Below, piece by piece: positions 19,276-37,746 of a stretch of 52,185 nt of DNA; position 1 is the first letter of the stretch, and each line of letters opens with the position of its first letter. Under the pieces are notes generated by a model. That model saw nothing but the letters and a program-made list of their open reading frames with translations, was not told where the DNA came from and did not search any database. The DNA lies in IMG/VR virus record IMGVR_UViG_3300045996_002710, positions 1-52,185 of that record; one strand, given 5' to 3'. This stretch comes from a virus. A program made the translations under genes and the position numbers.

Positions 19276-19812
19276 ATGACCGCGAACCCTGACGAAGGCG
19301 CGATCGGGGCAGCAACTGCCGCCGGGCCGCGGGTCGGACGCATCCCCGCCGACACCTTCAGCAACCGGCTCGTGCTCGCGCGAAGACTCGCCGGCATGAC
19401 GATCGAGGAAGCCGCCGAAGCTGCGAATCTCAGCAAGTCCAGCTGGGCGAACTGGGAGAACGGCAGACGCCCACAAGGTCAGGTCGACGTGTGCCAGGCC
19501 ATCGCGAGCGCGCTCGACGTCGACTTCAACTGGCTTCTGCTCGGCGGGGCACTGGAGTCCAGCAGGGGCAGACCCACCAAACGGTCAGTGCCGGGCGCCG
19601 GACGGGGTGATGCCGAGGGAAAAGCGGGCGACGTCAGTAACCTTGCAGTTTCAGCTGATGCCTGGTCGGCCGAGCCGATCGGCGAACTCGGAAACCGTCG
19701 CGGATCTGTTTCGACCGTTCGGCCATCCGACACTCGGCCGAAGGTGCGAAGCGATTCGTCTCGCTCGAAATCACCGTCTGTAGCGGGTAGACGAGCGGCC
19801 CCCATCTGGTGA
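19276..19812 (+). CDS. XRE/cI-like immunity repressor (178 aa)
   Basis: FSNRLVLARRLAGMTIEEAAEAANLSKSSWANWENG HTH. Trimmed to the ATG at 19276. Directly upstream of the integrase, overlapping it. Confidence 0.8.
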   Translation: MTANPDEGAIGAATAAGPRVGRIPADTFSNRLVLARRLAGMTIEEAAEAANLSKSSWANWENGRRPQGQVDVCQAIASALDVDFNWLLLGGALESSRGRPTKRSVPGAGRGDAEGKAGDVSNLAVSADAWSAEPIGELGNRRGSVSTVRPSDTRPKVRSDSSRSKSPSVAGRRAAPIW

Positions 19813-20723
19813 GCCGGAACGATGAGCAGGTGCCGTCTTGGATGCCGAGGCGATCAACGGAACGTGAGGCCACGATCGCATATATGAGAGATCTTATCGA
19901 TCGGCACGTCAGGCACTGCTTAGCCACCGGCCTCGCGGAGACCACCATCGACAAGCGGCAGGAGCTGCTCCACCGGCTCGACCGCACGCTGCCGATGGGC
20001 CTCGGCCAAGCCACCACCGAGGAGCTCCAGGACTTCCTCGCCCGCTACCGGAAAGCCGAGACGAAAGCGTCCTACTACGGGCACATCGTCGGGTTCTTCC
20101 GCTGGGCATGCGACCCGCACGCACCAAAGATCGACTACAACCCGGCGATCGGGCTCAGCCGGCCCCGGACTCCGCGAGGCCTACCGAAACCGGCCACCGA
20201 CGATCAGGTCGCATTCGCGCTCGCGACCCTGCCCTACCCGTGGCTCGCCTACGTCGCACTCGCCGCGTACGAGGGCGCCCGCTGTATCGAGATCGCTCGG
20301 CTGCGCCGGGAGGACGTCACGGAGCAGGAGACCAGGCTGCACGGCAAGGGCGACAAGGTCCGCGTACTCAAGACCCACGCCGAGGTGTGGCGCATCGTCC
20401 GAGGCCTGCCGCCCGGGCCGATCGCCCACCGCGCCGCCGGCCGTGAACCGGTCGACGCCGACTACGTCTCCGCCAGCACCCGCGGCAAGCTGATCCGCAT
20501 CGGCCTCGAAGGGATGACCCTCCACCGGTTCCGGCACTGGTACGCCACGACGCAGCTGAAGCCGGTGAAGTACGGCGGCGCCGGCGCCAGTATCCGGACA
20601 GTCCAGGAAAACATGGGCCACGCCAACCTGGCCAGCACCGCGATCTACACCCTCGTCACCAACGAGGAGCGAGCCGACGCTATCGACTCGCTCCCCACCT
20701 TCCGAGCCCCGGCATCCTGGTAG
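19809..20723 (+). CDS. int: Tyrosine recombinase / phage integrase
   Basis: Catalytic pattern ARCIEIARL (R), GKGDKVR (K), HRFRHWYAT (H-x-x-R), GHANLASTAIYT (H..Y). GTGA overlap with the repressor stop. Confidence 0.9.
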   Translation: MSRNDEQVPSWMPRRSTEREATIAYMRDLIDRHVRHCLATGLAETTIDKRQELLHRLDRTLPMGLGQATTEELQDFLARYRKAETKASYYGHIVGFFRWACDPHAPKIDYNPAIGLSRPRTPRGLPKPATDDQVAFALATLPYPWLAYVALAAYEGARCIEIARLRREDVTEQETRLHGKGDKVRVLKTHAEVWRIVRGLPPGPIAHRAAGREPVDADYVSASTRGKLIRIGLEGMTLHRFRHWYATTQLKPVKYGGAGASIRTVQENMGHANLASTAIYTLVTNEERADAIDSLPTFRAPASW

Positions 20724-23921: not shown

Positions 23922-24248
23922 CTAGGGCGTCGGCGGCCGGCCGCGGAGGAGCGCGTCGTGCTCGCGCAGGCTCGCCTCTATCCGGCCGACAGAGTCCTTC
24001 ATCGACCCGCCGCCGTTCGGGGTGACCTCGGCCCGGACCCGTGCCATGTCGGACTCGACGGCGGCGAGCCGGTCCATGATGCCGGGACGGGCGGGGACGC
24101 CGGGTCGGGCTGGTTCACCGCGGAGGTCGTCGAGGAGGTACCCGACGCTCCGGATTCCACGCCACGCCTTCTGCACGAGCCACCCCAATGCCGTCAGGCC
24201 GGCGACGATGCCGGCGATCGTTGCCGCGAGGCTTGTCACGTGGTTCAC
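23922..24248 (-). CDS. Lysis-associated membrane protein (108 aa; holin/spanin-like candidate)
   Basis: N-terminal TM helix LAATIAGIVAGLTALGWLV followed by a coiled-coil-like segment. Immediately downstream of the endolysin. Confidence 0.6.
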   Translation of the reverse strand: MNHVTSLAATIAGIVAGLTALGWLVQKAWRGIRSVGYLLDDLRGEPARPGVPARPGIMDRLAAVESDMARVRAEVTPNGGGSMKDSVGRIEASLREHDALLRGRPPTP

Positions 24249-24270: not shown

Positions 24271-25158
24271 TCAGACGGACAGGTGGGTGGCGTTGATCGC
24301 CGCTTTCACCTTGGCGTCGATGATCTCTTCGATGTCGGCGAGCGTCGGCAGCAGCGGGCCGAGCTGCTCGACGACGAGCGCTGCGACGGCGGCGGGGTCG
24401 ACACCGCCGGACTTGAGCGCAGCGACGTCTCCGGCGACCGCGGTCAGGTCACGGCGCAGCGCGAGGAGCGGGTTCGGGTAGCCGACCTTTGCCTGCTCGT
24501 TCCACGGGTAGTCGAACTTGATGACCTCCGTGCCGGCGACGAGGGCGGTCGCGGCGCGTTCGGCGTTGGCGATGAGCTGTGAGTCAGCCACGGAGTAGCT
24601 CCCTCCGGCGGCGGTGCCGCCGATCGCGGCGCTGACCGCGCCGAGGAGTCGGTCCCAGGGGAAGTTGCCGCCCGGGTCGGTGTGGTCGGTGCCGCCCCAG
24701 GCGAGGCGCATGTCGTTGTGCCCGTAGAAGGCTCTGACCTTGGGGTTGGCTTTCATCTCCGCGACGCTGGCCCGCCGGACCTGGAACCCGGCGAGGTCCG
24801 GGTCGTTGCGGATCAGCCACGCGAGGCAGTAGCCGAGCCGGTCCCACGCAACCCGGTCCAGCCACTGTTGCCGGGTCCAGCTGTTCAGGCCGGTGATCTC
24901 GACCGCGTACGCGTTCTCGTTCCCGGTGCCGCTGCCGGCGTGGCCGGCTTTCGCCTCGGTGTCGAGGGACTGGGTGACGCTGTCGGCGTCGGCGTACAGG
25001 TGCGCGGACGTGCCGTCGGGCCGGCGGGTCGCGTAGCTCGCCTCGTTGCTGTCGGAGGCCGTGTTCGCGGTGGCGTGGATCGCGATGCCGAACTTCCGGT
25101 CGTCGGCGTCGCGGTAGCTGTTGCGGCCCTGCACGTACGGGATGCCGGGGATTCTCAT
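24271..25158 (-). CDS. Endolysin: N-acetylmuramoyl-L-alanine amidase (Amidase_2/PGRP type) with a C-terminal extension
   Basis: GIAIHATAN..., AYAVEITG and GGTDHTDPG motifs. Confidence 0.85.
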   Translation of the reverse strand: MRIPGIPYVQGRNSYRDADDRKFGIAIHATANTASDSNEASYATRRPDGTSAHLYADADSVTQSLDTEAKAGHAGSGTGNENAYAVEITGLNSWTRQQWLDRVAWDRLGYCLAWLIRNDPDLAGFQVRRASVAEMKANPKVRAFYGHNDMRLAWGGTDHTDPGGNFPWDRLLGAVSAAIGGTAAGGSYSVADSQLIANAERAATALVAGTEVIKFDYPWNEQAKVGYPNPLLALRRDLTAVAGDVAALKSGGVDPAAVAALVVEQLGPLLPTLADIEEIIDAKVKAAINATHLSV

Positions 25159-25412: not shown

Positions 25413-25857
25413 AGAGGATCACCCCGTGGATCTGGTCGTTGGTCGCGAAGGTCTGCGGGATCGTCGGGGTCGCCACACCGACGGTGGCAGTGACGATCTT
25501 CAGCTTGGTGTTGTCCTGGAACTTGCAGACAGCGGCCTTGTCGAGGGTGCCGGAGTCGAGGATGTAGCAGGCCCCGACCGCGTACGCCACAGACGTCACC
25601 GAGGGCGTGACCGGCACCGAGATGAAGTACGTACCGGTGCCGTACGTCGTCGTGCCGCCCATGATGAGCCCGAACTCGAAGAGGATCAGGTCCGAGTCCG
25701 TCGGCTGCCGGTAGCGGCCGACGAGCGTCCCGTTGTTGACGACCGGCTGAGTGCCTGAACTGGACCACGCGATCGAGGCGTAGTTGTCCCAGCCGGGCTC
25801 GTTCAGCTCATTGAACTCGGCGTCGGTCGGTTCCTGGCCGGCGTTGAAGAGGCTCAC
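25399..25857 (-). CDS. Minor tail protein / receptor-binding candidate (152 aa)
   Basis: GTGA-coupled to the 917-aa tail protein. Beta-rich sequence of the kind seen in small actinophage minor tail proteins. Confidence 0.6.
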   Translation of the reverse strand: MSLFNAGQEPTDAEFNELNEPGWDNYASIAWSSSGTQPVVNNGTLVGRYRQPTDSDLILFEFGLIMGGTTTYGTGTYFISVPVTPSVTSVAYAVGACYILDSGTLDKAAVCKFQDNTKLKIVTATVGVATPTIPQTFATNDQIHGVILYEPA

Positions 25858-28607
25858 AGCGCGACCACCCCCGCCTTCCAGAGACCGACCGCGGTGGCGG
25901 CGAGGTGCGATTTGACGACACCGTTCACGGACCTGGTGACGGTGAACGTCTGCGGCGAGCTCGCGCCGGTGATGTTCGTGACGGTCATCCGTTCACCGCC
26001 GACCCCGATGTCGAAGCTTGTCGCGCCGGTCTTCCACAGCGACCCGCCGGTGCTCGCGACCGACAGCGACGTTGTGCTGGAGTTGATACCGGCGTTGAGC
26101 GTCGACCCGGCCGACGCGAGCCGGCCGCGGTTCCCGCCGCCGGCGATCGTGAAGACGTTCCAGGGCCGGGCGGGCCCGGTGTTGATCGCGACCCGCCAGG
26201 TGAAGCTGTCGAAGACCTCGGTGTACCCCTCGACGATCAGGTCCAGGTCGTCCGGTGGCAGTCCGGGCGGGACGTTGGTGATGGCGAGGCGGGACCCGAC
26301 GTCCGTGTCCAGCCAGTCACCGACGAGGTCGGAGTTGCGGGTGAGGTCGAGGCTGATCTGCGGGTAGCGGATCTCCCGGACCTTGCCCATGCCGAGCCGC
26401 CAGTCCGCCCGCGGCCGCATGTCCGCGTCGGTGTTGCTGTTGATCGTGACGGAGTCGGAGTAGATGCCGACGAGCCGGGCGATCTCCAGGTCGGTCGCGA
26501 CCGCGGCACGGGAGCCGCCGGACCGGTTGATGGTGACCTCGGTCCGGAGCAGGTAGTCGTCGCGGATCCCGGAGAAGCCAGCGCCGACCTGCCCCTGGTC
26601 GTGGTCGAGGGTGAGCGCGACGGTGGCGTTCTGCCGCATCGTCCGCGGCAGCAGGATCAACTGGCCCTGCTTGCCGTCGAAGAGCACACCCTCCTCGGTG
26701 AGCTCACAGTCGCGGAGCTGCTGCAGCAGCGTCGTCTGCCGCTGCTCACCCATCGCCTGTACGGTGGAGCCGTTCGTCGCGCCGTCGGCGCTGCCGAAGA
26801 ACACCGGGATGTTCTCCTCGGTGGCCAGCCGCGCGAACCGCGCCGACGTCAGCTCGCCGGCGTAGCCGGAGGCGAGCTCCGCCCCGTTCGTGAGGATGAG
26901 GCTGTTGCTGGCGGCGAGGAGGTGGCCGATGACCTGCCCGCCGTTGGTGAACTGCAACGCGTCGTGGCTGAAGAGGCTGATGTTGCCGTTCGTGCCGGCG
27001 ACGGACCCGACGAGGAGGGCGCTGGCGTCGCTGTCGTCGGTGTTGACGGTGATGTCCCACTCGATGTTCCCGGCGAGCTCGTACGCGTTCACCGCGACGT
27101 ACAGCTGCCGGTCGAGGATGTCGCCGTACGGCAGTGCACCGGTGCCGGCGCCGAGGACGTTGACGTTCGCGGCGTTGAACCCGCCGATCGTGAACGTCCC
27201 GTCGGTGTTGATGTAGACCGCCCACAGCCGGACGGTGCTCGTCGGGCACGCCCAGGCGATGACCGCGGTCTGAGCAGCCGGCGCCGGGACCTGCAGCGCG
27301 AACCGCACACCCCACTCGGTGGAGGCGGCGTACGCGGGGACGGGCGCCCGCCACGACGCCGCCGGACCGCCGGTCGGCAGTGACTCCGACCCGGCGAACC
27401 CCGACGCTGACCCGGGCCGGACGTCGGTGAACTGGACCGCCGGGCCTCCGGACACACCGGACGCGAACATCGTCGCGCCGGAGTCGTCCTCCATCGGCCA
27501 GTACGCGACGACCGGTGGGGTGGTCGCGTACGTCTCCTTGGTGCTCGCCCGGTACAGGGCGGACTTGAGGGCCTTGCCCAGGCCGAGGCGGCGGAGCTGC
27601 CCGGATGCGGTGATGTCGGCGAACGCGACGGTCTCCGACTCGTCGGCCCAGCTGGTGGGCCACTGGTCGACGTAGCCGGTGAACTGGTACCGCGGCCCGT
27701 CGACCATCGAATAGCTGTCGAAGTCGATGCTCGCATTGGCGTTGGTGTTGCCGGTCTCCCGGATCGACGTCAGGCCGAGCGTCCCGGTGTTCGCGGCGAG
27801 GGTCGCGTCGTCGGTGCCGTCGAGCTGCCACGTGGTCGGCTCGTCGGTGCCGTCCTGCCACGCCTTGACCCGGACGGCCTGCAAAAACGTCTGCACCCGG
27901 ATCCACACCCACGTCGACGTGGAGTGGGTGAGGCCCGTGTCTTCGGACGCGACGACCGTGTCAAGCGCCGCGGCCCGCTCGACGAGCCGGACCGTGATCG
28001 CTCCGGACGTCGCGAACTGCAGCTCAGCGCGGGCACTGGCGGCGCTGCTCACGTACCGCAGCAGCAGGCCGGCGGACTGCGCTGCACCGGTCGACAGCGC
28101 GTTGACGCGGACCTTCACCGTCTGGTCAGAACGCAGGATCGACAGGCCGAGCTGCGAGTGGTGCCGGGTCGCTGCCGCGGTGTGGAGGTGCCGGCCGCCG
28201 GACGCCGCGGCGACGGAGTAGTCCGACGCGGCTCCACCGGTGTTCGTCCATGCCCCGCCCGAGTCGGCGTTGCCCCAGCTCGACGCCTCGGTCCGGTTGA
28301 AGCTGTCGGACAGCTGGTTGTCGTTCGGCCGATTCAGCACCCGCAACGGGGTGTTCTGGTCGATGAGCCCGTAGTACGGCGACATCGGGTTGTCGGGGAC
28401 CCAGATGCCGTCGGGGTTGAGCAGCACCAGGGAGCAGCTTGACGGACCGGTGGTCGCGTACCGGTCGCGGCGGCCGCGGGTGATGCTGATCTTCGACGGT
28501 GCGTGGGTGTAGGACGTGATGTCGGTCCATGACCACCCGGTCGGGTTCGCGCCGGGGAGGTCGGCGCCGGGGGCGAGTTCGACTGTTGGATGGAAGCGGA
28601 CGGACAC
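25854..28607 (-). CDS. Large minor tail protein with a Dit-like (siphovirus distal tail) N-terminus (917 aa)
   Basis: Located immediately after the tape-measure region. N-terminal WSWTDITSY..ISITRGRRD..CSLVLLNPDG pattern typical of distal tail proteins. Confidence 0.8.
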   Translation of the reverse strand: MSVRFHPTVELAPGADLPGANPTGWSWTDITSYTHAPSKISITRGRRDRYATTGPSSCSLVLLNPDGIWVPDNPMSPYYGLIDQNTPLRVLNRPNDNQLSDSFNRTEASSWGNADSGGAWTNTGGAASDYSVAAASGGRHLHTAAATRHHSQLGLSILRSDQTVKVRVNALSTGAAQSAGLLLRYVSSAASARAELQFATSGAITVRLVERAAALDTVVASEDTGLTHSTSTWVWIRVQTFLQAVRVKAWQDGTDEPTTWQLDGTDDATLAANTGTLGLTSIRETGNTNANASIDFDSYSMVDGPRYQFTGYVDQWPTSWADESETVAFADITASGQLRRLGLGKALKSALYRASTKETYATTPPVVAYWPMEDDSGATMFASGVSGGPAVQFTDVRPGSASGFAGSESLPTGGPAASWRAPVPAYAASTEWGVRFALQVPAPAAQTAVIAWACPTSTVRLWAVYINTDGTFTIGGFNAANVNVLGAGTGALPYGDILDRQLYVAVNAYELAGNIEWDITVNTDDSDASALLVGSVAGTNGNISLFSHDALQFTNGGQVIGHLLAASNSLILTNGAELASGYAGELTSARFARLATEENIPVFFGSADGATNGSTVQAMGEQRQTTLLQQLRDCELTEEGVLFDGKQGQLILLPRTMRQNATVALTLDHDQGQVGAGFSGIRDDYLLRTEVTINRSGGSRAAVATDLEIARLVGIYSDSVTINSNTDADMRPRADWRLGMGKVREIRYPQISLDLTRNSDLVGDWLDTDVGSRLAITNVPPGLPPDDLDLIVEGYTEVFDSFTWRVAINTGPARPWNVFTIAGGGNRGRLASAGSTLNAGINSSTTSLSVASTGGSLWKTGATSFDIGVGGERMTVTNITGASSPQTFTVTRSVNGVVKSHLAATAVGLWKAGVVAL

Positions 28608-28650
28608 GTCATCACCTCTTCACCCGATGTGATGTTGGCGCGTGTCCGTC
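28599..28650. promoter_or_regulatory. Mirror-symmetric divergent start region
   Basis: 10-bp perfect inverted repeat GACGGACACG (28599-28608) / CGTGTCCGTC (28641-28650), with nested CATCAC (28610-28615) / GTGATG (28629-28634). Both arms contain a GTG start codon. Read directly. Confidence 0.6.
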
Positions 28651-29157
28651 ACACTGCGGAACGTGTCCACCCCTGACGCACCGATCCGGCCCGCCGAGAT
28701 GTCCCCCCGCCGCCCGTTCGGCCTGGCCTGGCTCCTGATCGCCGCAGTGCTCGCCGGCGGCGGCATCGTCGCGTACATGGCGGCGACCGGCGAGGCGCCA
28801 CCGGTGCACGCCGAGCCGGCCCAGTCGGCGAACGCGCCGACATCCGCAGCGACATCCGCGGTGGCACTGCTGACAGAGCGCGAGACGTGCGAGAGGCTCA
28901 ACCCGCCGCTCCGGAAAGCGTCGGCGATGTACACCGCCTACATGCGGGACGGCACGACGCCGACGAGCGAGGCTGCGGCAGCGCTGCGGGCCGAGCTCCG
29001 CGAGGTGCAGAAGGTCGCCTACGCCGACATGAGCCCTCACATCGGCCAGGTCATGAAGGGCGTGTCGCTGCTCCCAGCGGGCGGTGCCGGCATCAGCTTC
29101 CGGGACTGGGACTACGCCGGCCAGCACCTGACCACCCGGTGTGCCGGCGTGAGTTAG
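28642..29157 (+). CDS. Opposite-strand secreted/membrane-anchored protein (171 aa; alternative ATG start at 28699)
   Basis: High GC3 in this frame. N-terminal RR + FGLAWLLIAAVLAGGGIVAYMAA hydrophobic segment, with two Cys in the mature part. The antisense ORF 28612..29127 is Arg-rich shadow. Confidence 0.7.
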   Translation: MSVTLRNVSTPDAPIRPAEMSPRRPFGLAWLLIAAVLAGGGIVAYMAATGEAPPVHAEPAQSANAPTSAATSAVALLTERETCERLNPPLRKASAMYTAYMRDGTTPTSEAAAALRAELREVQKVAYADMSPHIGQVMKGVSLLPAGGAGISFRDWDYAGQHLTTRCAGVS

Positions 29158-31301
29158 CGGGCCGTGACTGCCTGGCCGTTCACGAACAGCTGGATCTGGC
29201 CGGTGTCGACGAGCTTCTGGATGAACGTGCCGAATTCGCCGCCGCCGGAGACGACGAGCCTTGACGGCACGCCCGCCGTTTGCCCGGCGGCCGGGCCGCT
29301 CCGGGACATCTGGCTGACGAGCCGCTGCGTCTGTGCAGCGGTCGACACGAACTGGCCCATGTTGCCCCAGACGATCTCGGGGCCCTCTTCACCGACGAGC
29401 ATCGGGCCGGTGCCGGTGACGGTGCCGCCCTCGGCGTAGGCGCTGCCGGCGTTGCGGCGCTGATCACCGCCGGAGACCACGCCCTCGACACTGACGTTGC
29501 CGACCTGGCGGACTCTGACCGTGACGGTGACTTCCTTGCTGTAGTAGCTCTCCATCAGCCGGCGGGCCGCCTCAGCACCGATGCCGGTCTTGGCGATCAA
29601 CCGCTCGAGGTTCGCGAGCTGCTGGTTGTAGGCCGCGGTGGCAGCGTCGTACGCCTCCTGGGTGCCGCCGCCGGCCGCGATCGCCGCGTCACGCTGCCGC
29701 TTCAGGTCTTCGATGGTCCGGTTGATCATCGACAGGTTGTCGGCGCCCTTTTGCGTGTTGATGTCGATCGTGGCGCCGTTCTCCCGGAACGCCTCGGTCA
29801 GGTCGCGGAGGTCGTTCGCCACCGCGATCTCAGCGTTGCTGACACCGAGCAGCACGTCGCGGGTTTCGTTGAACTCGTCGTTGAGCCGTTCGACGGTGGC
29901 CAGCGCGTCGCGTTCCGCCTGGTCGATGCCGTAGAACGCGGTCGTGCCCGATTCGCCGACGCTGTCGAGGGTCGGGCCGAGACGCGACGCCTGGTCCTCG
30001 AACTGGCCGAGCAGGGTGATCCCGAGACTTATCCCGCCCGAGCCGATCGCGGCCTCAACAGGGTGGTCCTGGATGTAGGTGTACGTGTCTTCCGCTGCCT
30101 CGGTGATCGCGCCGAAGGCACGGACGATGCCGGCCACGACGGTGATCGTGTCCCGCAGGGCAGCTGCGCCGCCCTCCGCCCCGTCAGCGATGTCGGAGAA
30201 CGCGTCCCCCGCGGCGTCGCCGAGTTCGATGAGGCCTTCCGACAGCGCGAGCACGGCCGGTTCGCCCTTGTCGACCATCGCCGATACGCCGCGCAGGATG
30301 CCTGACGCGAGGCCGCCGAGCCCGTCGACGAGCGGATCCACATACTTCGCCGCGTTGGCGAACATGTCGTCCAAGTCCCACGACTCGACCAGCGGACCGA
30401 TGTCGCGGATCGCCTCGAGCGTCGGGCCGGTGAACACCTCGGTCGCGCCGAGGAACTCTTCCTTGACCGTGTCGGCAGCGCTGGCCCACTCGGCCTTGAA
30501 CTTGTCAGGGTCGCCCATGATCGCACCGGCGATGCCAGCGCCGGCGACACCGAACCCGGCAAGGCCGGTGAGCGCGCCGCCGAGGGCGGACAGCAGCGGC
30601 ACGGCGGCCGCGGCACCGAGCGCGGCCCCGGCCGAGCCGAGCACCGGGGTCGGCATGCCCTGCAGTCCGTTGCCGACTCCGTTGCCGGCGCCGAGCGCCC
30701 GCCGGCCGAGCCGGGCCAGGAGGGAGTTGTTCTCGTTGTTGCGGCGTTCTTCCTCGTCGCGGCGTAGCTGCGCACGGTGTGCTTCCTCGGCGAGCCTGGC
30801 CAGGCGGTGCTGGTTTTCGACGTCCTCGTCGGCGATCCGCCGGCGGGTCGCCTGGAGCCGGGCCAGTTCCTGCTGCTGCCGCTCGATCTGCCGCAACACG
30901 GCCGGGTCGCCGCTACGCGCGTACTCGCTGTTGAGCCGCTGCAACTCGCGGCGCACGTCGCCGAGCTGATTGTCGAGCTGCGCGGCCGCGGCGGTGGAGT
31001 TCCGGAACCCGGCCCGCAGCCGCTCCGCGTCGAACCGCTCGTTGGAGACGTCGGCGAGGCGCCGCTGCAGCCGCTCCAGCTCGGCGCTGAGCTCCGCGGA
31101 CGGGCCGTTGTTCGCGATCTCGTCGTTGACCCGGTCGAGGGCCCGCTGCGCTTCGTTGGCCTCGGATTCGAGATGATCAAACGACCGCGCGAGCTGGTCG
31201 GTGATCCGGGCGGCGCGGGCGGACCCTGATGCGACATCGTTGAGTGCCGCCTGGGCGCGGCGAGCATCACCGCGGATGTTGAGGTCGAGATCGCTCGCCA
31301 C
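29154..31301 (-). CDS. Tape measure protein (715 aa)
   Basis: Position after the G/GT chaperones. Coiled-coil N-terminus and a Gly/Ala-rich hydrophobic central segment. Confidence 0.9.
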   Translation of the reverse strand: MASDLDLNIRGDARRAQAALNDVASGSARAARITDQLARSFDHLESEANEAQRALDRVNDEIANNGPSAELSAELERLQRRLADVSNERFDAERLRAGFRNSTAAAAQLDNQLGDVRRELQRLNSEYARSGDPAVLRQIERQQQELARLQATRRRIADEDVENQHRLARLAEEAHRAQLRRDEEERRNNENNSLLARLGRRALGAGNGVGNGLQGMPTPVLGSAGAALGAAAAVPLLSALGGALTGLAGFGVAGAGIAGAIMGDPDKFKAEWASAADTVKEEFLGATEVFTGPTLEAIRDIGPLVESWDLDDMFANAAKYVDPLVDGLGGLASGILRGVSAMVDKGEPAVLALSEGLIELGDAAGDAFSDIADGAEGGAAALRDTITVVAGIVRAFGAITEAAEDTYTYIQDHPVEAAIGSGGISLGITLLGQFEDQASRLGPTLDSVGESGTTAFYGIDQAERDALATVERLNDEFNETRDVLLGVSNAEIAVANDLRDLTEAFRENGATIDINTQKGADNLSMINRTIEDLKRQRDAAIAAGGGTQEAYDAATAAYNQQLANLERLIAKTGIGAEAARRLMESYYSKEVTVTVRVRQVGNVSVEGVVSGGDQRRNAGSAYAEGGTVTGTGPMLVGEEGPEIVWGNMGQFVSTAAQTQRLVSQMSRSGPAAGQTAGVPSRLVVSGGGEFGTFIQKLVDTGQIQLFVNGQAVTAR

Positions 31302-32867: not shown

Positions 32868-33893
32868 CTACTCCTTCTCCATGAGCCGCATCAGCGCGGC
32901 GGCGTTGTTGTCGAACGTGCGGTCTTGCACTGCCGTGCGCGCCGCGAGGGCGAGTTCGGCACGCTGGTCGGGGTGGTCGAGGTAGTAGCGGAGCAGCGCG
33001 GACGCTTCCTCCGGCGACCCGAAGCGGGGCAGCATGTGCAGGACCTCGTCGCCCTCGCCGCGCGGGTCCCGCAAGAAAAACGCGCCGCACGCCGCGAGCT
33101 CAAGCTCCCGCGGGCCCATCGACCAGCCGGCCGACAGCTCGGGACGGTTCGCCTCGCGCCGGTAGAGGTTCATGCACACCGCGGTGGAGCGGTAGATGGC
33201 GGCGGCGTCCTCGTTGTCGAGGCACTCCTCAACGTCGCCGGGGACGTACTTCCGCAGCGGCGAATCCTCGGCGAGGCGCTGCCAGTTGCCGGCGAGGAGC
33301 ACGTCGATGCCGTCGAGGTTCATCTGCTCGAGGAAGTGGATCCGCGACTCGTAGCCGGTGCCGACGAAGCTGAAGTCGCAGGCCAGCATCGGGTCGGCCG
33401 GACCTGGGTGGTGGATCGACGGCCGGTACGCCTTCGGCATGTAGACCGTGCGCGTGAGCGCCCGCAGCGCGGCGAGGTTCGTCGGGTCGTCGGCCAGCAC
33501 CAGGTCGACGTGCGGCGCCAGCTTCAGGTGCCGATCGTGCTCGTACGGCTCCTCGGTGCACAGCAGCACGACCTTCGTACCGTCGCGGCGCGCCTGCTCG
33601 AGCACGTCGGTGTCGGTAAAGAACCCGCTGACGATGAACAGGACGTCCGGCCGGATCTTCCACAGCGCCGCGGCCAGCCGGTCGACGGCGAGGTGGGTCG
33701 CCTGCTCGCCGGTAAGGGCCTTCCGGAACGTGTCGGGTCCGGCCTGCAGCAGGACGTTGTCGTAGAAGGTGAGCGCGTCGCCGAGCGGGAACGGTGCGAC
33801 CTTCTCACCGGCGGCGCGGAGCGCCTCGAGCCAGCCGGCGTACGTGTCGTGCACGCTGAACGCGGGCCCGGGATGGACAGCGAGCCACCTCAC
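32868..33893 (-). CDS. CgeB-type / GT1-like glycosyltransferase (341 aa) embedded in the neck module
   Basis: Trimmed to the GTG at 33893 (GTGA overlap). C-terminal RELELAACGAFFLRD...FGSPEEASALLRYYLDHPDQRAELALAARTAV resembles the Glyco_trans_1_2 (CgeB) family. Confidence 0.7.
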   Translation of the reverse strand: MRWLAVHPGPAFSVHDTYAGWLEALRAAGEKVAPFPLGDALTFYDNVLLQAGPDTFRKALTGEQATHLAVDRLAAALWKIRPDVLFIVSGFFTDTDVLEQARRDGTKVVLLCTEEPYEHDRHLKLAPHVDLVLADDPTNLAALRALTRTVYMPKAYRPSIHHPGPADPMLACDFSFVGTGYESRIHFLEQMNLDGIDVLLAGNWQRLAEDSPLRKYVPGDVEECLDNEDAAAIYRSTAVCMNLYRREANRPELSAGWSMGPRELELAACGAFFLRDPRGEGDEVLHMLPRFGSPEEASALLRYYLDHPDQRAELALAARTAVQDRTFDNNAAALMRLMEKE

Positions 33894-34312
33894 AGGAGCA
33901 CCTCCACGGGGAACTCGGCGCCGAGGTATCGGGTGGCGCCGTACGTGTAGGGGCCGGGGTTGCGGGGTTGGCCGAGGCGGGTGGAGTCGACGAGCCCGCC
34001 GAGGGTCGGGTCGGCGTTGACCGCGGCGACGAGCGATGAGGCGCCGGTCGGGGCGAGGAACGGTGTGAGGCGTGACCATGCGGCGCGGTTGTCGCCCCAC
34101 TGGACGAAGACGTTGACGATGAGGTCGAGGTCGGTGACGTCGCCCATGGCCACGTCGTAGTCGGCGATGCCACCTTCTCCCTCGCCGAGGGATACGACGA
34201 TCGCCGGGACCGTGCCGAGGTCGCCGGGCGGGAACGCGTGCCGTTTCGCCAGACCGTCGACGTCGACGAACCGGGCGGCGAGGGCTTCCATGACGTCGAG
34301 GAAGTCGGTCAT
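33890..34312 (-). CDS. Neck protein (head-closure/tail-terminator class, 140 aa)
   Basis: ATGA-coupled directly after the head-tail adaptor. Confidence 0.55.
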   Translation of the reverse strand: MTDFLDVMEALAARFVDVDGLAKRHAFPPGDLGTVPAIVVSLGEGEGGIADYDVAMGDVTDLDLIVNVFVQWGDNRAAWSRLTPFLAPTGASSLVAAVNADPTLGGLVDSTRLGQPRNPGPYTYGATRYLGAEFPVEVLL

Positions 34313-35202
34313 GCGACGAGCACCGCGTCACGCCGGTACGGCTTGAGAAACTTCAGCGCCCGGGCGTTCTCGCCGACCTGAACGGTGAACTCGCCCTCGC
34401 CGGCGACGCCGAACGGGCTGTCCTTGAGCCGGAACGTGTCGGCGGCGATGATCCGGGCAGCGGTCCGGATGGCCGGCGGGACCTTCGGCCAGCCCCACAC
34501 GCCGGTGATCTGGACGGTGTCGAGGCGTCCCTGCGTACCGGTCGGGAAGGTGCCGGTGGTGAGGACGAGCTCGTCGTACGGGCGCCGCTCGGGCGCCGCG
34601 CCCGGGTTGTAGGGCAGGAGCCGGTAGCCGCCGCTGAGGGTGGTGGCGAACGTCCCGTCGCCGGCGGTGTCCGTCTTGACGGCGGACGCCGACACGAGGT
34701 CGCAGAACGCGGGCAGCCGCACCGTGGTGTAGCAGTCGGCCGGCTCGAACGTCCGCGCCTCTGAGAGGCCACGCCAGAACACCCGGTCGCAGTGCGTCTC
34801 GATCCACCGTGACGCGGCGAAGCATGCGGCGTGCAGCTCGTCGTCGTCCTCGGTGGAGTCGATCGACAGCCGCGACTTCAGGGTGGACACGGGGCAGTAC
34901 AGGTGCCCGAGCTGGGTCTCCTGGACGTCCCAGGTGCCGACCTCGGTGTCGACCGCGGTGCCGGTACCGACCCATTCGTAGGTCCAGGTGCCGTCCTCGC
35001 TGCAGGCGATGTCCTTGCGGTAGACGCCCGTTCCGGTGCGGGTGATCTCCGCCGCGGCGTACGTGTAGGTCGTTTCCGCGCCGAGCGGGTCGGTGATGAT
35101 CAGCGACACTGTCGTCGGGTCGGTTGCTGTGCCGCTGACCGTGAAGGTGTTCGAGACCGTCGCCAGTTCGGACGCCGAGGAGAAGAACACGCTGGCGCTC
35201 AC
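34309..35202 (-). CDS. Head-tail adaptor (gp6-like) with an N-terminal Ig-like domain (297 aa)
   Basis: Trimmed to the GTG at 35202 (GGAGGTG upstream, GTGA overlap). LKSRLSIDSTEDDDELHAACFAASRWIETHCDRVF matches the gp6-like connector motif. Confidence 0.75.
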   Translation of the reverse strand: MSASVFFSSASELATVSNTFTVSGTATDPTTVSLIITDPLGAETTYTYAAAEITRTGTGVYRKDIACSEDGTWTYEWVGTGTAVDTEVGTWDVQETQLGHLYCPVSTLKSRLSIDSTEDDDELHAACFAASRWIETHCDRVFWRGLSEARTFEPADCYTTVRLPAFCDLVSASAVKTDTAGDGTFATTLSGGYRLLPYNPGAAPERRPYDELVLTTGTFPTGTQGRLDTVQITGVWGWPKVPPAIRTAARIIAADTFRLKDSPFGVAGEGEFTVQVGENARALKFLKPYRRDAVLVA

Positions 35203-36536
35203 GTGACACCTCCGCTCGATGTGGCACGGGCCGTGACGGCCGCGGTGGAGGTCCGACCTGCGGAAACCGCGGACGAGCTGTCGACGGCCTCGGTGACCGC
35301 AGCGGTGGACGTGGCCCGGACCGGGTCGGTGCCCGGTGTCACGACCGTCGCGGTTGCGGTCAGCACTGCTACGGCGGTGAGCGTGGCCTGTGCGGCAGCG
35401 GCGACAGCGGCGGCCGCCGAGACGCTCGCCGTGGTCGTGAGTGCTGCTGCAGCGTCGGAAGGGCTGAGAACGTCGGCGGTGGCGGTGATGGTCGCCGTGA
35501 CGGTTGCCGCCGCGGTCGTGGGCCGGTCCGCCGCAGCGGCTGCCGTGAGCGTGGCGGTGACGGTCTGAGCGGCGGTCGTGGGTCGGTCGACGGCACCTGC
35601 CGCGGCGATCGAGGCAGTTGCGGTCACAGTGCCGGCTGCGGCCCGGTCGACCGCGGCCGCCGCCGTGCGGGTCGCGGTCGCTGTCACTACGGCAGCTGCC
35701 GCGGCCGTGACTGCGGCGGCTGCGGTGACCGTCGCCGTGATGGTCCGCGCTGCAGCTGCGGCCCGGTCGACGCTGCCGGCGGCTGTGAGCGTGGCTGTTG
35801 TCGTCGCGGCGGCGTCCGCGCTGTGCGTGGTGCCGCCGCCAGAGCGGCCGACCGCCACGCTCGCGCCGAGACCGTAGCTCCACACCGGCACCGAGGACGA
35901 CGCCACCGACGTGTTCGTGAGCGACGTCTGGTTGGCGCCGTTGCCGGTGAGGTCGATCATCGACTGGCCGGTGGCGTGCTGGTCGAGGAGCCACAGGCCG
36001 TCGGGCGCCATGCCCAGTGCGGCGAGCAGCGTGTAGGGCAGCTGCTCCCACTCGGGATCGGACAGTGCCCGCTTCACGGCGCCGTTGAGGAGGATGTCGC
36101 CGTTGAAGAAGTCGGTGGTCTGCCAGCGGCCGATTTGGATCCGGCCGCCGGTCAGGTCTGTCGAGTCGCCGCCGGTGCCCGCGGCGGCGTCCGCGTGCGT
36201 CCACGTATTGGTGTCGAACACATACTTGTGGCCGCGGGGAACCGAGGTGCCGGATGCCCGGCTGACGCCCGCGAGGACCCAGTTGTCGGAGGTGGTGATT
36301 CCGACGGTGGTGTCCTTGTTGCTGGTGCCGATGATCAGTTGGATGGTGTTGGTGTTCGAGAACTGCAGCGCCAACTTGGAGCTGTTCGCCGATGTCTCGA
36401 TGCTCAACGGGGTGTGCCAGGCGCCGTTCGCGCCGCGGCGGCAGATCGTCCACAGGGAGTGCCCGGACGAGCCGATCCCGACGAGCCCGCCGATGCTGCC
36501 GGTGATGTAGTCAGCGCCGGCGAAGGTGCGGGCCAT
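35199..36536 (-). CDS. LamG/ConA-like jelly-roll domain protein with an approximately 220-aa Ala/Thr tandem-repeat C-terminus (445 aa)
   Basis: N-terminal W..AGVSRASG..HKYVFDTNTW..IGRW..FFNGDI..RALSDPEWEQL pattern. C-terminal repeats of the form VDRxxxAAxTVTATxTAAAA. Confidence 0.75.
   Translation of the reverse strand: MARTFAGADYITGSIGGLVGIGSSGHSLWTICRRGANGAWHTPLSIETSANSSKLALQFSNTNTIQLIIGTSNKDTTVGITTSDNWVLAGVSRASGTSVPRGHKYVFDTNTWTHADAAAGTGGDSTDLTGGRIQIGRWQTTDFFNGDILLNGAVKRALSDPEWEQLPYTLLAALGMAPDGLWLLDQHATGQSMIDLTGNGANQTSLTNTSVASSSVPVWSYGLGASVAVGRSGGGTTHSADAAATTTATLTAAGSVDRAAAAARTITATVTAAAAVTAAAAAVVTATATRTAAAAVDRAAAGTVTATASIAAAGAVDRPTTAAQTVTATLTAAAAADRPTTAAATVTATITATADVLSPSDAAAALTTTASVSAAAAVAAAAQATLTAVAVLTATATVVTPGTDPVRATSTAAVTEAVDSSSAVSAGRTSTAAVTARATSSGGVT
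35230..35860. repeat. Imperfect in-frame tandem repeats (GC-rich, Ala/Thr codons) inside 35199..36536
   Basis: Recurring gtcgaccg(g/a)(g/c)cc...acggcgacggtcaccgc-type units. They generate long shadow ORFs on both strands. Confidence 0.7.
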
Positions 36537-36828: not shown

Positions 36829-37350
36829 CTACGTGGTCGTGTAGGTGAGAGCGGCCCCGACGAACTCGGCGTCGCCGGTTGCGGTGTCGCCGCCGGCGGC
36901 GCCCTGCCGGGCGATCCGGACGACGACGAAGTCCCCGGCGGCGACGCTGTCGGCGTTCGTCATCGTGATGCTCGCCTCGTCGAGGTGGCCGGCCGTGCCG
37001 GGCACGGTGACGGTGGCGGTGTTCGCGGTGGCGAAGACCTTCGCGTCGACGTCGGTGCTGTCGCCGTCGGTGACCGCGGCGATTGACCCGGCCCAGATGA
37101 CGTCGCCGGTCGTCGCTGACGCCATCTTGTACTGGACCTTCAGCACCGGAGCTGACGCGTAGTCGGCCGGCATCCGGAACGACCAGCTGGCCCATTCCTC
37201 GGTGGCCGCGTCGAACCACAGCTCCAGGAAGTACGGCGCCGGCGCGCTGCCGGACGACTTGCGGCGCTGCAGGGCCGGCGCGAGGTTCGTCGCCGAGCCG
37301 TCCGGCAGCACGGCGCCGCCGACGGGCAGGAGGATCGTCCCGGTGGCCAT
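36829..37350 (-). CDS. Hypothetical virion-module protein (173 aa; beta-rich, possible decoration protein)
   Basis: High-GC3 ORF in the head/neck module. No family recognised. Confidence 0.6.
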   Translation of the reverse strand: MATGTILLPVGGAVLPDGSATNLAPALQRRKSSGSAPAPYFLELWFDAATEEWASWSFRMPADYASAPVLKVQYKMASATTGDVIWAGSIAAVTDGDSTDVDAKVFATANTATVTVPGTAGHLDEASITMTNADSVAAGDFVVVRIARQGAAGGDTATGDAEFVGAALTYTTT

Positions 37351-37353
37351 GCG

Positions 37354-37746
37354 CTACGCCGCGATCGGCGTGAACGCGAACGTCAGCGACGTCAGGTTCA
37401 ACGTGTCACCGTTCGTGATCGACTTCGACGACGTCAGCGCGACGGAGAACAGGAAGTTCCCGGCGGAGATGTTGTCCCACACACTGATGTGCGAGATGGT
37501 CTCCGAGCCGGCCGACCAGCTGGTCCAGGACGGCAGCGTCGAGGTGATCGCCTTCGACCCTGCCGAGGCAGCCGACCACGTGAGCGCCTTGCGCGTCGTC
37601 TCGGCGGAGGCGTTCGATGTGCCGGCCGAGCCGGGGTCGCCGGTGTGGAGCTTTACGTTCGCTGACGACGGCGCGGTGAACGCCGTTCCGGCGAGCATGT
37701 CCAGCCACTTGTTGGCGAGGTTGACCGCGTGCAGGCCGACCGTCAT
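37354..37746 (-). CDS. Hypothetical virion-module protein (130 aa)
   Basis: VKLHTGDPGSAGTSNA...SHISVWD...GDTLNL pattern recurs in phage structural regions. Function unknown. Confidence 0.6.
   Translation of the reverse strand: MTVGLHAVNLANKWLDMLAGTAFTAPSSANVKLHTGDPGSAGTSNASAETTRKALTWSAASAGSKAITSTLPSWTSWSAGSETISHISVWDNISAGNFLFSVALTSSKSITNGDTLNLTSLTFAFTPIAA

What the first reader, a model, noticed from the sequence alone, without database searches (positions are those of the whole stretch)
28599..29157. Opposite-strand secreted/membrane-protein gene between tape measure and tail-tip gene, with a mirror-image start region
Seen: the only plus-strand gene in 29 kb of late genes is 28642-29157 (possibly starting at 28699). 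It has high GC3 and an RR + FGLAWLLIAAVLAGGGIVAYMAA signal/anchor, with two Cys in the mature part. Its stop overlaps the tape-measure stop tail-to-tail (ttagcgggc). Its GTG and the GTG of the 917-aa tail gene sit in the two arms of a perfect 10-bp inverted repeat, GACGGACACG at 28599-28608 and CGTGTCCGTC at 28641-28650. A nested CATCAC/GTGATG pair lies inside. Both genes therefore begin Val-Ser-Val. Inference: this is a moron expressed from the prophage, for example for superinfection exclusion or envelope modification. On the late mRNA the same palindrome could fold over the tail-gene start codon and modulate its translation.
Basis: partly seen in the sequence, partly recalled or inferred. 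Interest (0 to 1): 0.7.

Follow-up and report, generated by a model that had tools for sequence, protein, structure and literature searches.

The report
Reverse-strand membrane-protein cassette beside tape measure
A temperate phage of a high-GC (actinobacterial-type) host carries a real backwards-facing gene between its tape-measure and tail-tip genes; it encodes a membrane-anchored four-helix-bundle protein of an undescribed family and sits in a conserved slot where related phages carry other membrane proteins, which fits a prophage accessory gene, possibly for excluding rival phages.

Summary
The plus-strand ORF is a real gene. It has five close and about 17 more distant homologues, dN/dS of 0.1-0.6, and stop codons in the competing minus frames. 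It encodes a short cytoplasmic tail, one strong TM helix, a Pro/Ala/Ser/Thr linker and a confidently modelled four-helix bundle (pLDDT ~98) with two invariant Cys. The bundle has no Pfam, PHROG, PADLOC, NCBIfam or structural match.

All close relatives share the layout tail gene(-) | ORF(+) | TMP(-). In 10 of 13 contexts the family gene converges on a TMP homologue or a TMP-position gene.

GTG 28663 is conserved in all 11 loci. It lies 7 nt after an invariant CACACT, inside a conserved ~50-bp block that also holds the tail gene's Shine-Dalgarno. That block precedes at least three other, unrelated membrane-protein cargos in other phage contigs. It therefore looks like a promoter plus leaderless-start slot with exchangeable cargo.

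The perfect 10-bp inverted repeat exists but is not statistically unusual and is kept in only about 5 of 11 loci.

Best reading: a moron-like accessory cassette of a temperate phage (integrase present), plausibly for superinfection exclusion. Expression and function are untested.

The parts
25854..28607 (-). 917-aa tail-tip / minor tail protein gene (GTG start at 28607)
   Evidence: phrog_5313 E 3e-147. Distant homologues are the gene right after the TMP in Streptomyces phages Dubu and Dagobah, and 'minor tail protein' in Rooney, Dryad and Lizz. The N-terminus is conserved from codon 1 in L003 and L006-L008.
28612..28621 (-). Shine-Dalgarno of the tail gene (GAAGAGGTGA; its GAGG core lies 7 nt before the GTG)
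   Evidence: Read from the sequence. Conserved as CCYCTTCACC in 8 of 11 loci, with one or two changes in L007, L012 and L019.
28599..28650 (.).
   Evidence: Present. Not rare. Outer arms conserved in about 5 of 11 loci, and the inner ATCAC/GTGAT in 9-11 of 11. Fold z = -1.74.
28626..28655 (+). Conserved core of the intergenic block: invariant GATGTGATGTTGGC (-35-like GTGATG 28629-34), a variable 10-11 nt stretch, then invariant CACACT (28650-55, -10-like nAnnnT). It also reads as the dyad TGTGA-N16-TCACA.
   Evidence: Alignments A2 and A5. Unique in the window. Found in front of unrelated cargos in L017, L018, L019, L022 and L027. GTGATC-N15-CACACT-N8-ATG is kept in the distant locus L024.
28663..29157 (+). 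Cargo gene, 164 aa, from the conserved GTG (probably a leaderless start) to TAG.
   Evidence: GTG 28663 is conserved in 11 of 11 loci and is in frame with every cargo. No SD precedes any candidate start. dN/dS is 0.10-0.63 and variable sites by codon position are 64/61/114. Homologues P0002-P0023.
28717..28785 (+). Transmembrane helix (residues 19-41), preceded by RR
   Evidence: AF2 helix 19-41. Kyte-Doolittle maximum 2.21 at residues 19-37; 3 K/R before it and 0 K/R in the 15 residues after it.
28786..28875 (+). Pro/Ala/Ser/Thr-rich flexible linker (residues 42-71)
   Evidence: pLDDT 54-72 with no secondary structure. Variable in length and sequence in A4.
28876..29151 (+). Four-helix-bundle ectodomain (residues 72-163) with invariant Cys76 (28888-90) and Cys160 (29140-42)
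   Evidence: AF2 pLDDT about 98, helices 72-96, 102-118, 121-139 and 146-163. Invariant C, P, C in A4. No Foldseek hit with E<=1e-3.
29154..29157 (.). Overlapping convergent stop codons (TTAG: + TAG, - TAA), leaving no room for a terminator
   Evidence: The same 4-nt overlap occurs in L003-L008, L012, L019, L024, L025 and the P0019 locus.
29154..31301 (-). 715-aa tape measure protein gene
   Evidence: Weak PHROG TMP hits. Synteny with the annotated Dubu TMP. Homologous to the convergent partner genes in L024, L025 and L010.

Best explanation
The ORF is a real accessory ('moron-like') gene of a temperate siphophage of a high-GC, probably actinobacterial, host. It lies antisense inside the late operon, between the tape-measure gene and the tail-tip gene.

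Expression (inferred). A conserved ~50-bp intergenic block supplies two things. On the minus strand it carries the strong Shine-Dalgarno of the tail gene. On the plus strand it carries a weak sigma-70-type promoter (GTGATG, 15 nt, CACACT) whose transcript would start at or next to GTG 28663. The mRNA would therefore be leaderless.

Product. The protein is 164 aa. It should insert N-in/C-out through a single TM helix. A ~30-residue flexible linker then holds a four-helix bundle, clamped by a Cys76-Cys160 disulfide, outside the membrane.

Function (inferred). In the lysogen the ectodomain most likely interferes with the tail tip or tape-measure step of genome injection by incoming related phages, i.e. 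superinfection exclusion.

Shut-off (inferred). During lytic growth, late transcription runs antisense through the gene. There is no terminator between the converging genes, so late transcription would silence it.

The slot is a hotspot. Related phages keep the block, the start codon and sometimes the N-terminal anchor, but carry other ectodomains.

Shown here: the gene is real, its architecture, the conservation of the slot, and the cargo exchange. Inferred: promoter activity, the leaderless start, topology, prophage expression and the exclusion function.
For: Gene is real:
- GC3 is 0.90 and the competing frames contain stops.
- There are 5 close homologues and 18 HMM hits.
- dN/dS is 0.10-0.40 in the bundle and 0.24-0.63 in the N-terminal part.

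Accessory cassette:
- Dubu and Dagobah have the tail gene directly after the TMP.
- In L005 the flanks are diverged but the ORF and the block are conserved, and homology ends at the stop codon.
- The same block plus GTG precedes unrelated membrane proteins in L017/L018, L019, L022 and L027.
- The L027 cargo combines a family-like anchor with the L019-type ectodomain.

Start and promoter:
- GTG 28663 is conserved in 11 of 11 loci.
- GTG 28642 and ATG 28699 are not conserved.
- Synonymous variation in the codons between 28663 and 28699 suggests they are translated.
- GTGAYS-N15/16-CACACT-N7/8-start recurs in L012 and L024, where the ectodomains are only about 25% identical.

Temperate phage: integrase.

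Protein: TM helix, linker and four-helix bundle at pLDDT ~98. Member P0018 replaces the TM anchor with a lipobox, which argues that the domain is extracytoplasmic.

Link to the TMP: the family gene converges on a TMP homologue or TMP-position gene in 10 of 13 contexts, including TMPs only 27-31% identical.

Precedents:
- Sie proteins are typically tethered outside the cytoplasmic membrane by an N-terminal helix or lipid anchor, and Ltp targets the TMP (PMC3952083).
- The HK97 gp15 moron lies next to the TMP gene (PMC3594210).
- Antisense genes inside phage operons give reciprocal regulation (PMC11087260).
Against: - There are no expression data of any kind. The promoter hexamers are poor matches: the E. 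coli-type scan finds none and the -35 spacing is only 15-16 nt.
- The block could instead, or also, serve the tail gene on the minus strand, or be an operator (TGTGA-N16-TCACA dyad).
- Two classical moron hallmarks are missing. There is no terminator and GC does not deviate (0.72 against 0.70).
- The ectodomain matches no known Sie, defence or other family, so the exclusion function rests only on architecture and location.
- A PWM of the block does not recover the sites I had eyeballed in the most distant loci L009 and L010.
- No cultured phage or sequenced genome carries the family, so the host is unknown.
Confidence: 0.6

Rival explanations
1. Lysogenic-conversion or host-fitness factor unrelated to phage exclusion. 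The surface-exposed four-helix bundle would modify or bind a cell-envelope component (cell wall, lipoglycan or secretion machinery), or act in entry exclusion of other mobile elements.
For: It has the same architecture as the best explanation. Distant family members also occur beside repressor, integrase and DUF2637 genes in elements that do not look like complete phages (P0011 and P0015). One member is fused to an Rv1352/Rv1906c secreted-protein domain.
Against: The gene keeps converging on TMP genes (10 of 13 contexts), and the ectodomains in the slot turn over. Both fit a phage-phage arms race better than housekeeping envelope functions. Neither observation is decisive.
Confidence: 0.2
2. 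Lytic-cycle membrane protein. One option is a single-TMD lysis regulator like LysF1b/LysA2b, which in Cluster A mycobacteriophages is embedded among the minor tail genes. The other is an early 'lytic conversion' protein like T5 Llp, which is encoded next to the receptor-binding protein gene.
For: [quoted passage not shown] T5 Llp is adjacent to pb5 (PMC9586334). The gene here lies about 3.5 kb from the endolysin and holin genes.
Against: LysF1b is predicted N-out/C-in with a cytoplasmic C-terminus (PMC13056207). Here the charge bias, the two invariant Cys and a lipoprotein variant all point to an extracytoplasmic C-terminal domain. The gene is on the strand opposite to the late and lysis genes. 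The window already has a holin-like gene next to the endolysin. Unrelated ectodomains substitute in the slot.
Confidence: 0.12
3. The locus is mainly regulatory. The inverted repeat or conserved block, together with antisense transcription, tunes translation or transcription of the tail-tip gene, and the ORF's product is secondary.
For: In the window the minus-strand RNA can fold so that the GUG and part of the SD are paired (-29.8 kcal/mol). The inner ATCAC/GTGAT pairing is kept in 9-11 of 11 loci, and the given structure beats slid controls (72% against 23-48% of cells paired). A 546-nt untranslated antisense spacer precedes the tail gene.
Against: z is only -1.74. The outer arms are absent or different in about half of the loci. 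RNAalifold finds no covariation. The structure was derived from one of the aligned sequences, which inflates the comparison with controls. Purifying selection on the ORF, a 21-member protein family and a pLDDT-98 fold show that the protein itself is under selection.
Confidence: 0.06
4. Spurious ORF: a shadow frame in GC-rich DNA within a non-coding spacer.
For: High-GC genomes generate long antisense ORFs. The GC3 phase is shared with one minus frame.
Against: The minus frame that shares the GC3 phase carries stops in all loci, and the other two do in most. dN/dS is below 1. Homologues down to about 25% identity keep the two Cys and the predicted fold.
Confidence: 0.02

Closest known systems
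HK97 gp15 moron (superinfection exclusion)
   Same: A small membrane protein gene inserted in the tail operon next to the tape-measure gene of a temperate siphophage. It is expressed from the prophage and blocks genome entry in a manner that depends on the tail of the incoming phage (PMC3594210).
   Different: gp15 lies between the chaperone and TMP genes; morons in general are described as having their own promoter and terminator and a deviating GC content (PMC3594210; gp15's strand is not stated there). The gene here is antisense, lies after the TMP, has no terminator and has normal GC. No sequence relationship was detected (no direct comparison was run): gp15 is YebO-like, and this protein is a TM anchor plus a four-helix bundle.
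Ltp-type Sie lipoproteins (S. thermophilus TP-J34)
   Same: An ectodomain tethered to the outer face of the cytoplasmic membrane of a Gram-positive host. Prophage-expressed. The target is the tape measure protein (PMC3952083, citing Bebeacua 2013). One family member here (P0018) is a lipoprotein variant.
   Different: Ltp sits in the lysogeny module, is lipid-anchored, and has (from my own recollection of Bebeacua 2013) an ectodomain built of helix-turn-helix repeats. The protein here is TM-anchored with a disulfide-clamped four-helix bundle, is encoded beside the TMP gene, and shows no detectable homology.
T5 Llp / T1-phi80 Cor receptor-blocking lipoproteins
   Same: A small envelope protein encoded adjacent to the tail-tip or receptor-binding gene and used for exclusion (PMC9586334).
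   Different: They are outer-membrane lipoproteins of Gram-negative hosts that bind FhuA. Llp is expressed early in lytic infection. No homology.
Noncontiguous operons (antisense gene nested in a phage operon, e.g. ith/tha in 80alpha)
   Same: [quoted passage not shown]
   Different: In 80alpha the nested gene sits in the cI operon and encodes an inhibitor of a defence system. Here it sits in the late structural operon and encodes a membrane protein. Regulation is untested here.
LysF1b / LysA2b single-TMD lysis regulators of mycobacteriophages
   Same: A single N-terminal TMD protein encoded among the minor tail genes downstream of the TMP (10.64898/2026.08.27.747656).
   Different: Those are predicted N-out/C-in and belong to the lysis genes. 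The protein here is on the opposite strand and is predicted N-in/C-out with a Cys-bonded ectodomain.

Membership tests
Moron (Juhala/Hendrix sense) | An extra gene between two genes that are adjacent in related phages | tested here: met
   In Dubu and Dagobah the homologous tail gene directly follows the TMP. In the close lineage the slot holds different cargos.
Moron (Juhala/Hendrix sense) | Own promoter | tested here: inconclusive
   There is a conserved block with a -10-like CACACT 7 nt before the conserved GTG. No consensus sigma-70 promoter was found by scan, and there are no expression data.
Moron (Juhala/Hendrix sense) | Own terminator | tested here: not met
   The stop codons of the ORF and the TMP overlap. 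No terminator-like hairpin lies downstream.
Moron (Juhala/Hendrix sense) | Base composition different from the neighbours | tested here: not met
   GC is 0.723 against 0.699 and 0.700 for the flanking genes.
Moron (Juhala/Hendrix sense) | Expressed from the repressed prophage | not testable with these tools
   Only the temperate lifestyle can be shown (integrase).
Ltp-type Sie lipoprotein | Lipobox signal peptide | tested here: not met
   There is no Cys at the end of the hydrophobic segment (LAGGGIVAYMAA). Only the distant member P0018 has LVATGC.
Ltp-type Sie lipoprotein | Sequence or fold similarity to Ltp | tested here: not met
   No PHROG or Pfam hit. Foldseek against PDB and BFVD returns only generic four-helix bundles with E of 0.08 or more.
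Superinfection exclusion proteins in general | Tethered to the external face of the cytoplasmic membrane | tested here: inconclusive
   Supporting signs are the TM helix 19-41, RR on the N-terminal side, two invariant Cys in the C-terminal domain and a lipoprotein variant. No topology predictor or experiment was available.
Superinfection exclusion proteins in general | Blocks DNA entry of incoming phage | not testable with these tools
   Needs plating and DNA-entry assays.
LysF1b-like 1-TMD lysis regulator | N-out/C-in topology and co-expression with the lysis genes | tested here: not met
   The gene is on the strand opposite to the endolysin and holin genes. The charge bias and Cys pattern point to C-out. 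Direct sequence comparison with LysF1b was not run.
Leaderless actinobacterial mRNA | Transcription start at the A/G of the start codon, a -10 element about 7 nt upstream, and no SD | tested here: inconclusive
   CACACT-N7-GTG occurs in 11 loci, -N8-ATG in L024, and no SD precedes any candidate start. The TSS has not been mapped.
Known defence systems (PADLOC) | Profile match | tested here: not met
   The window protein has no hit. Three distant members hit PD-T4-6 weakly, best E 2e-4.

The most novel reading that the evidence does not exclude
The TMP/tail-tip junction of this actinophage lineage is a dedicated hotspot for exclusion genes. It consists of a fixed promoter, leaderless start and anchor module that displays interchangeable ectodomains on the cell surface. 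The four-helix-bundle family would be a new class of TMP-directed superinfection-exclusion protein. Its long-standing physical linkage to the 3' end of TMP genes (TMPs from 27% to 74% identical) would reflect co-evolution with its target. The antisense, terminator-less arrangement would switch it off automatically when late transcription starts.
Probability: 0.25. Interest if true: 0.65.

Novelty: new variant of a known kind. Interest (0 to 1): 0.45.

Why it matters
- Few superinfection-exclusion proteins have been described in actinobacterial phages (to my knowledge), and the searches here found no annotated relative of this family.
- A conserved expression slot with swappable surface domains, tied to the tape-measure gene, would give a compact, testable set of candidate exclusion factors. 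The tests are simple: clone each cargo and plate related phages.
- It would also give a candidate natural example of an antisense gene silenced by late transcription.
- Practical point for annotation: gene callers picked several different starts for this family. Comparative data point to a leaderless GTG that they chose in only some loci.

Tried and rejected
1. Near-identity and tblastn searches of 50,697 phage records with the region, the ORF and a central family member found nothing. The lineage is uncultured.
2. Protein-pattern scans of GTDB genomes and IMG/VR with A1 found nothing. The diverse alignment A4 could not be used for this scan.
3. The DNA-motif scan of genome contigs gave only chance hits in low-GC MAGs. 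L021, L023 and L026 were likewise chance hits.
4. The first relaxed motif scan used a wrong gap length and returned nothing. It was corrected.
5. I thought L009 and L010 shared the block. A PWM built from the 11 loci does not rank those sites first, so that claim is dropped. Only the generic 'nAnnnT-N7-start' resemblance remains there.
6. The block as a repeated operator: the 15-mer, TGTGA-N14-18-TCACA and GTCAC-N8-12-GTGAC have no other copy in the window.
7. Function by homology: Pfam, PHROGs, PADLOC, NCBIfam, PDB sequences and Foldseek (PDB, BFVD) gave nothing for the bundle. NCBIfam hits (CU044_5270, Rv0361 and others) cover only the RR-TM-linker region, at 15-19 bits against cut-offs of 37-450. 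The single PHROG 'moron membrane protein' hit belongs to an extra C-terminal domain of P0012.
8. A second plus-strand late gene (37202-37804) was considered and rejected as the shadow of 37354-37746(-).
9. A minus-strand gene in the spacer was rejected: the GC3-phase minus frame has stops in every locus, and the other frames lack a coding GC pattern.


Full report
**1. Context**

The window is a 52,185-bp, 70% GC metagenome contig (JGI). The exact product of the ORF, P0001, lies on a contig of that same length. Nearly all genes are on the minus strand. The contig carries:
- a tyrosine integrase (19809-20723, +; phrog_1, E 1e-33);
- a holin-like gene and an amidase endolysin (23922-24248 and 24271-25158);
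- a large terminase whose best relatives are Rhodococcus, Arthrobacter and Gordonia phages at about 32% identity.

It is therefore a temperate siphophage-like genome of an uncultured lineage with a high-GC, probably actinobacterial, host.

The 715-aa gene at 29154-31301(-) gives weak tape-measure PHROG hits. It occupies the TMP position by synteny with Streptomyces phage Dubu. The 917-aa gene at 25854-28607(-) matches phrog_5313 (E 3e-147). It is distantly related to the protein that directly follows the TMP in Dubu and Dagobah, and to 'minor tail proteins' of other Streptomyces phages.

- the ORF 28642-29157;
- GC3 of 0.90;
- the RR plus hydrophobic segment;
- two Cys;
- the TTAG stop overlap with the TMP;
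- the perfect 10-bp inverted repeat 28599-28608 / 28641-28650;
- the nested CATCAC/GTGATG pair.

GC3 alone cannot assign the strand, because one minus frame shares the third position. That frame has five stops. All three minus frames carry stops in most related loci. The ORF is the only non-shadow plus-strand gene in the late region; a second candidate, 37202-37804, is the shadow of 37354-37746(-).

The inverted repeat is not statistically remarkable. Perfect 10-bp inverted repeats with a loop of 40 nt or less occur at about 15 places in the window. About 9 k-mer hits are expected in Markov-1 simulations.

**3. The gene is real and conserved**

A search of 5.8 billion proteins found five homologues at 52-75% identity. 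A profile search of 1.84 billion cluster representatives found 18 hits with E<=1e-3.

All six close loci (window, L003=L004, L005, L006, L007, L008) have the same layout: tail gene(-) | ORF(+) | TMP(-), with a 4-nt YTAG stop overlap.

Nei-Gojobori dN/dS is 0.10-0.40 in the C-terminal domain and 0.24-0.63 in the N-terminal part. Variable sites by codon position are 64/61/114.

**4. The protein**

AlphaFold2, run on the 21-sequence alignment A4, gives these elements:
- a TM helix at residues 19-41, numbered from GTG 28663;
- a low-confidence Pro/Ala/Ser/Thr linker at residues 42-71;
- a four-helix bundle at residues 72-163 with pLDDT about 98.

The only invariant residues across the family are Cys76, Pro81 and Cys160. 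Cys76 lies near the start of helix 1 and Cys160 near the end of helix 4. In an up-down bundle these are neighbouring ends. A disulfide clamp is therefore a reasonable inference, though I could not measure the distance.

The hydrophobic segment has a mean Kyte-Doolittle value of 2.21. There are three K/R before it and none in the 15 residues after it. One distant member, P0018, replaces the TM anchor with a lipobox, LVATGC. Together these features point to an N-in/C-out protein with an extracytoplasmic domain. Cleavage after a VHA-type site cannot be excluded.

The bundle has no match in Pfam, PHROGs, PADLOC, NCBIfam or PDB sequences, nor by Foldseek in PDB or BFVD. The weak NCBIfam hits cover only the anchor and linker.

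**5. The start codon and the 'mirror-image' idea**

- The ATG 28699 used by the JGI gene call is ACA in L007.
- GTG 28663 is present in all 11 loci that share the junction.
- The codons between 28663 and 28699 (PDAPFRLAD) vary partly at synonymous positions, which suggests they are translated.
- No candidate start has a Shine-Dalgarno. The divergent tail gene has a strong one: GAAGAGGTGA, with the GAGG core 7 nt before the GTG.

The shared Val-Ser-Val beginning is therefore an accident of this genome.

**6. The conserved block and cargo exchange (main new result)**

Alignment of the junction (A2 and A5) shows a conserved ~50-bp block. Its elements, in order, are:
- CCYCTTCACC, the tail gene's SD on the other strand;
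- the invariant GATGTGATGTTGGC;
- 10-11 variable bases, present in two 'alleles';
- the invariant CACACT;
- seven bases;
- the GTG.

Scanning IMG/VR and JGI metagenomes for the two invariant boxes returned four further 68-70% GC phage loci: L017, L018=L020, L019 and L022. A relaxed scan returned L027. In all of them the parts of the block that were not in the search pattern are also conserved: the SD region, GCGTG, and the first codons VT(D/P)T. All have the layout tail gene | block | plus-strand ORF. The converging minus-strand ORF of TMP size was seen in L017, L018, L019 and L027. L022's contig ends about 130 nt after the cargo ORF.

The ORFs that open at the GTG are different proteins:
- a 130/160-aa pair with a central TM segment (L017, L018);
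- a TM protein with a beta-rich two-Cys ectodomain (L019);
- a 177-aa RR-TM protein with a Ser/Thr-rich domain (L022).

The L027 cargo joins an N-terminal anchor like that of the window protein (PFRLAMSRRR plus TM; E 0.001) to the L019-type ectodomain (36% identity, E 8e-19). None of these cargos has a Pfam or PHROG annotation.

The left neighbour also varies. There are three unrelated tail-gene N-termini: the window type, the L005/L019/L024 type and L012.

In L005 the TMP is only 43% identical and the tail N-terminus is unrelated. The ORF there is still 57-70% identical, and homology stops exactly at its stop codon.

The constant element is therefore the block plus the start codon. The cargo is exchangeable.

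In L012 and L024 the ectodomains are only about 25% identical to the window's. Both keep GTGAYS-N15/16-CACACT-N7/8-start in frame. I read this as a weak sigma-70-type promoter with a leaderless start.

This reading is inference, with four caveats:
- An E. coli-type scan finds no promoter.
- The block is also a dyad, TGTGA-N16-TCACA. This is unique in the window, with 0.1 copies expected by chance. It could be an operator.
- Part of the block may serve the tail gene.
- A PWM of the block does not recover the sites I had eyeballed in the most distant loci L009 and L010.

**7. Where the family occurs**

Contexts of distant members:
- L024 has the same TMP|tail slot, with a TMP 31% identical.
- L025 converges with a 4-nt overlap on a TMP homologue (27% identity) and lies next to a repressor-like gene and an integrase.
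- L010/L011 converges on a TMP homologue.
- L012 is in the same slot.
- L009 and the P0019 locus are antisense inside the late operon, but between the head-tail genes and the major tail protein.
- P0015 sits among DUF2637, HTH and AAA_25 genes.

In 10 of 13 contexts the family gene abuts the 3' end of a TMP gene. It is always opposite to the structural genes when it lies in a structural operon.

No member was found in cultured phages, GTDB species genomes or IMG/VR by protein pattern.

**8. The hairpin hypothesis**

- In the window the minus-strand RNA folds to -29.8 kcal/mol, with the GUG and part of the SD paired. The z-score is -1.74, and 11 of 200 shuffles fold as well.
The outer helix pairs 64.5% and the inner helix 84.8%. 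Six of 500 shuffles reach the observed values.
- The structure was derived from one of the aligned sequences, and the sequences are related. Both inflate these numbers.
- RNAalifold prefers a different fold built from invariant bases, with no covariation.
- Only the window has the perfect outer stem. L006 and L007 have 9/10, L022 has 7/10, L003 uses another 8-bp pairing, and the rest have none.

I rate a conserved translational hairpin as possible but weak.

**9. Mechanism proposed**

- Shown: a selected gene for a TM-anchored four-helix bundle, in a temperate phage, antisense to the late operon. It sits in a conserved junction where cargo is exchanged, it has no terminator, and it is persistently linked to TMP genes.
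- Inferred, step 1: the block drives a leaderless transcript from GTG 28663 in the lysogen.
- Inferred, step 2: the protein inserts N-in/C-out and displays the disulfide-clamped bundle on a flexible linker.
- Inferred, step 3: the bundle interferes with the tail-tip or TMP step of DNA injection by related phages.
- Inferred, step 4: late transcription across the gene silences it during lytic growth, as described for antisense genes nested in staphylococcal phage operons (PMC11087260).

Step 3 rests on analogy. Sie proteins are commonly tethered to the outer face of the cytoplasmic membrane by an N-terminal helix or lipid anchor. Ltp targets the TMP (PMC3952083). The HK97 gp15 moron lies next to the TMP gene and acts in a tail-dependent way (PMC3594210). 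T5 Llp is encoded beside the receptor-binding protein (PMC9586334).

**10. Rivals**

- An envelope or host-fitness factor unrelated to exclusion (0.2).
- A lytic-cycle membrane protein, such as a LysF1b/LysA2b-type single-TMD lysis regulator. These are embedded among the minor tail genes in Cluster A mycobacteriophages (10.64898/2026.08.27.747656; PMC13056207). Strand, predicted topology and cargo exchange argue against this (0.12).
- A mainly regulatory locus (0.06).
- A spurious ORF (0.02).

**11. Novelty and verdict**

The kind is known: an accessory 'moron' in a tail operon. This case differs in several respects:
- it is antisense and has no terminator;
- its composition is normal (GC 0.72 against 0.70);
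- it sits in a fixed promoter/start/anchor slot with swappable ectodomains;
- it encodes an unannotated protein family.

I file it as a new variant of a known kind, with interest 0.45.

Noticed in passing
L025:6595-6871 (contig logan SRR26268938_57246): Between a repressor-like HTH_31 gene and the family gene lie five copies of a ~29-nt GC-rich hairpin repeat (GTGCGCCCCGCGGGCGCGCGGGGCGAGAA) at 61-63-nt spacing, which is CRISPR type I-E-like in form and period. The ~32-nt 'spacers' are each a different near-perfect AT-richer palindrome, for example ACTGTAAACGCGTTTACAGT and GGTTATGACTAGTCATAAC. This is odd for a CRISPR array. It may be a string of distinct operator sites separated by hairpins.
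   Followed up: partly
window 28628-28653: The two invariant boxes of the junction form a dyad, TGTGA-N16-TCACA, with half-sites 21 bp apart centre to centre. It is unique in the window (0.1 expected by chance). The half-sites match the CRP/GlxR type, but the spacing does not. It could be an operator overlapping the putative promoter.
   Followed up: partly
window 32868-34331 (-) and 37853-38428 (-); L003 14040-20366: Glycosyltransferase-like genes are embedded in the structural operon. The 487-aa protein hits Pfam Glyco_trans_1_2. The 191-aa ORF was not scanned; I read a GT2-like DDDD motif in its translation by eye. The related locus L003 carries GT1, GT2, an epimerase and methyltransferases in its structural operon. 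This suggests virion glycosylation.
   Followed up: no
window 25854-28607 (-): The 917-aa tail protein matches phrog_5313 only from profile position 156 onward. Dubu gp16 and its Dagobah homologue are about 1273 aa, with about 300 extra N-terminal residues. Close relatives are 1065-1128 aa (L003, L017, L018). The lineage seems to lack the N-terminal module that is fused in the Streptomyces phages, and no separate Dit-like gene lies between the TMP and this gene.
   Followed up: no
P0012 (281 aa, metagenome): One family member carries an extra C-terminal Rv1352/Rv1906c domain (NCBIfam E 1.5e-26). The same domain matches phrog_17706, annotated 'moron ... membrane protein'. This shows that the four-helix bundle can be combined with another secreted mycobacterial-type domain.
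   Followed up: partly
window 34309-36453 (-): This 714-aa ORF has only its C-terminal 275 residues matching a head-tail adaptor (phrog_442). Either the longest-ORF start is over-extended, or the adaptor is fused to a large N-terminal region.
   Followed up: no
A5 columns 78-100 (window 28640-28662): The variable stretch between the two invariant boxes comes in two linked 'alleles'. GCGTGTCSGT goes with CACACTGCGGGGC, and GTGACTGCGT goes with CACACTCGCGGGC. Most loci can form a GTCAC...GTGAC hairpin that spans the putative transcription start. This may be co-variation, or it may reflect two recombining lineages.
   Followed up: no
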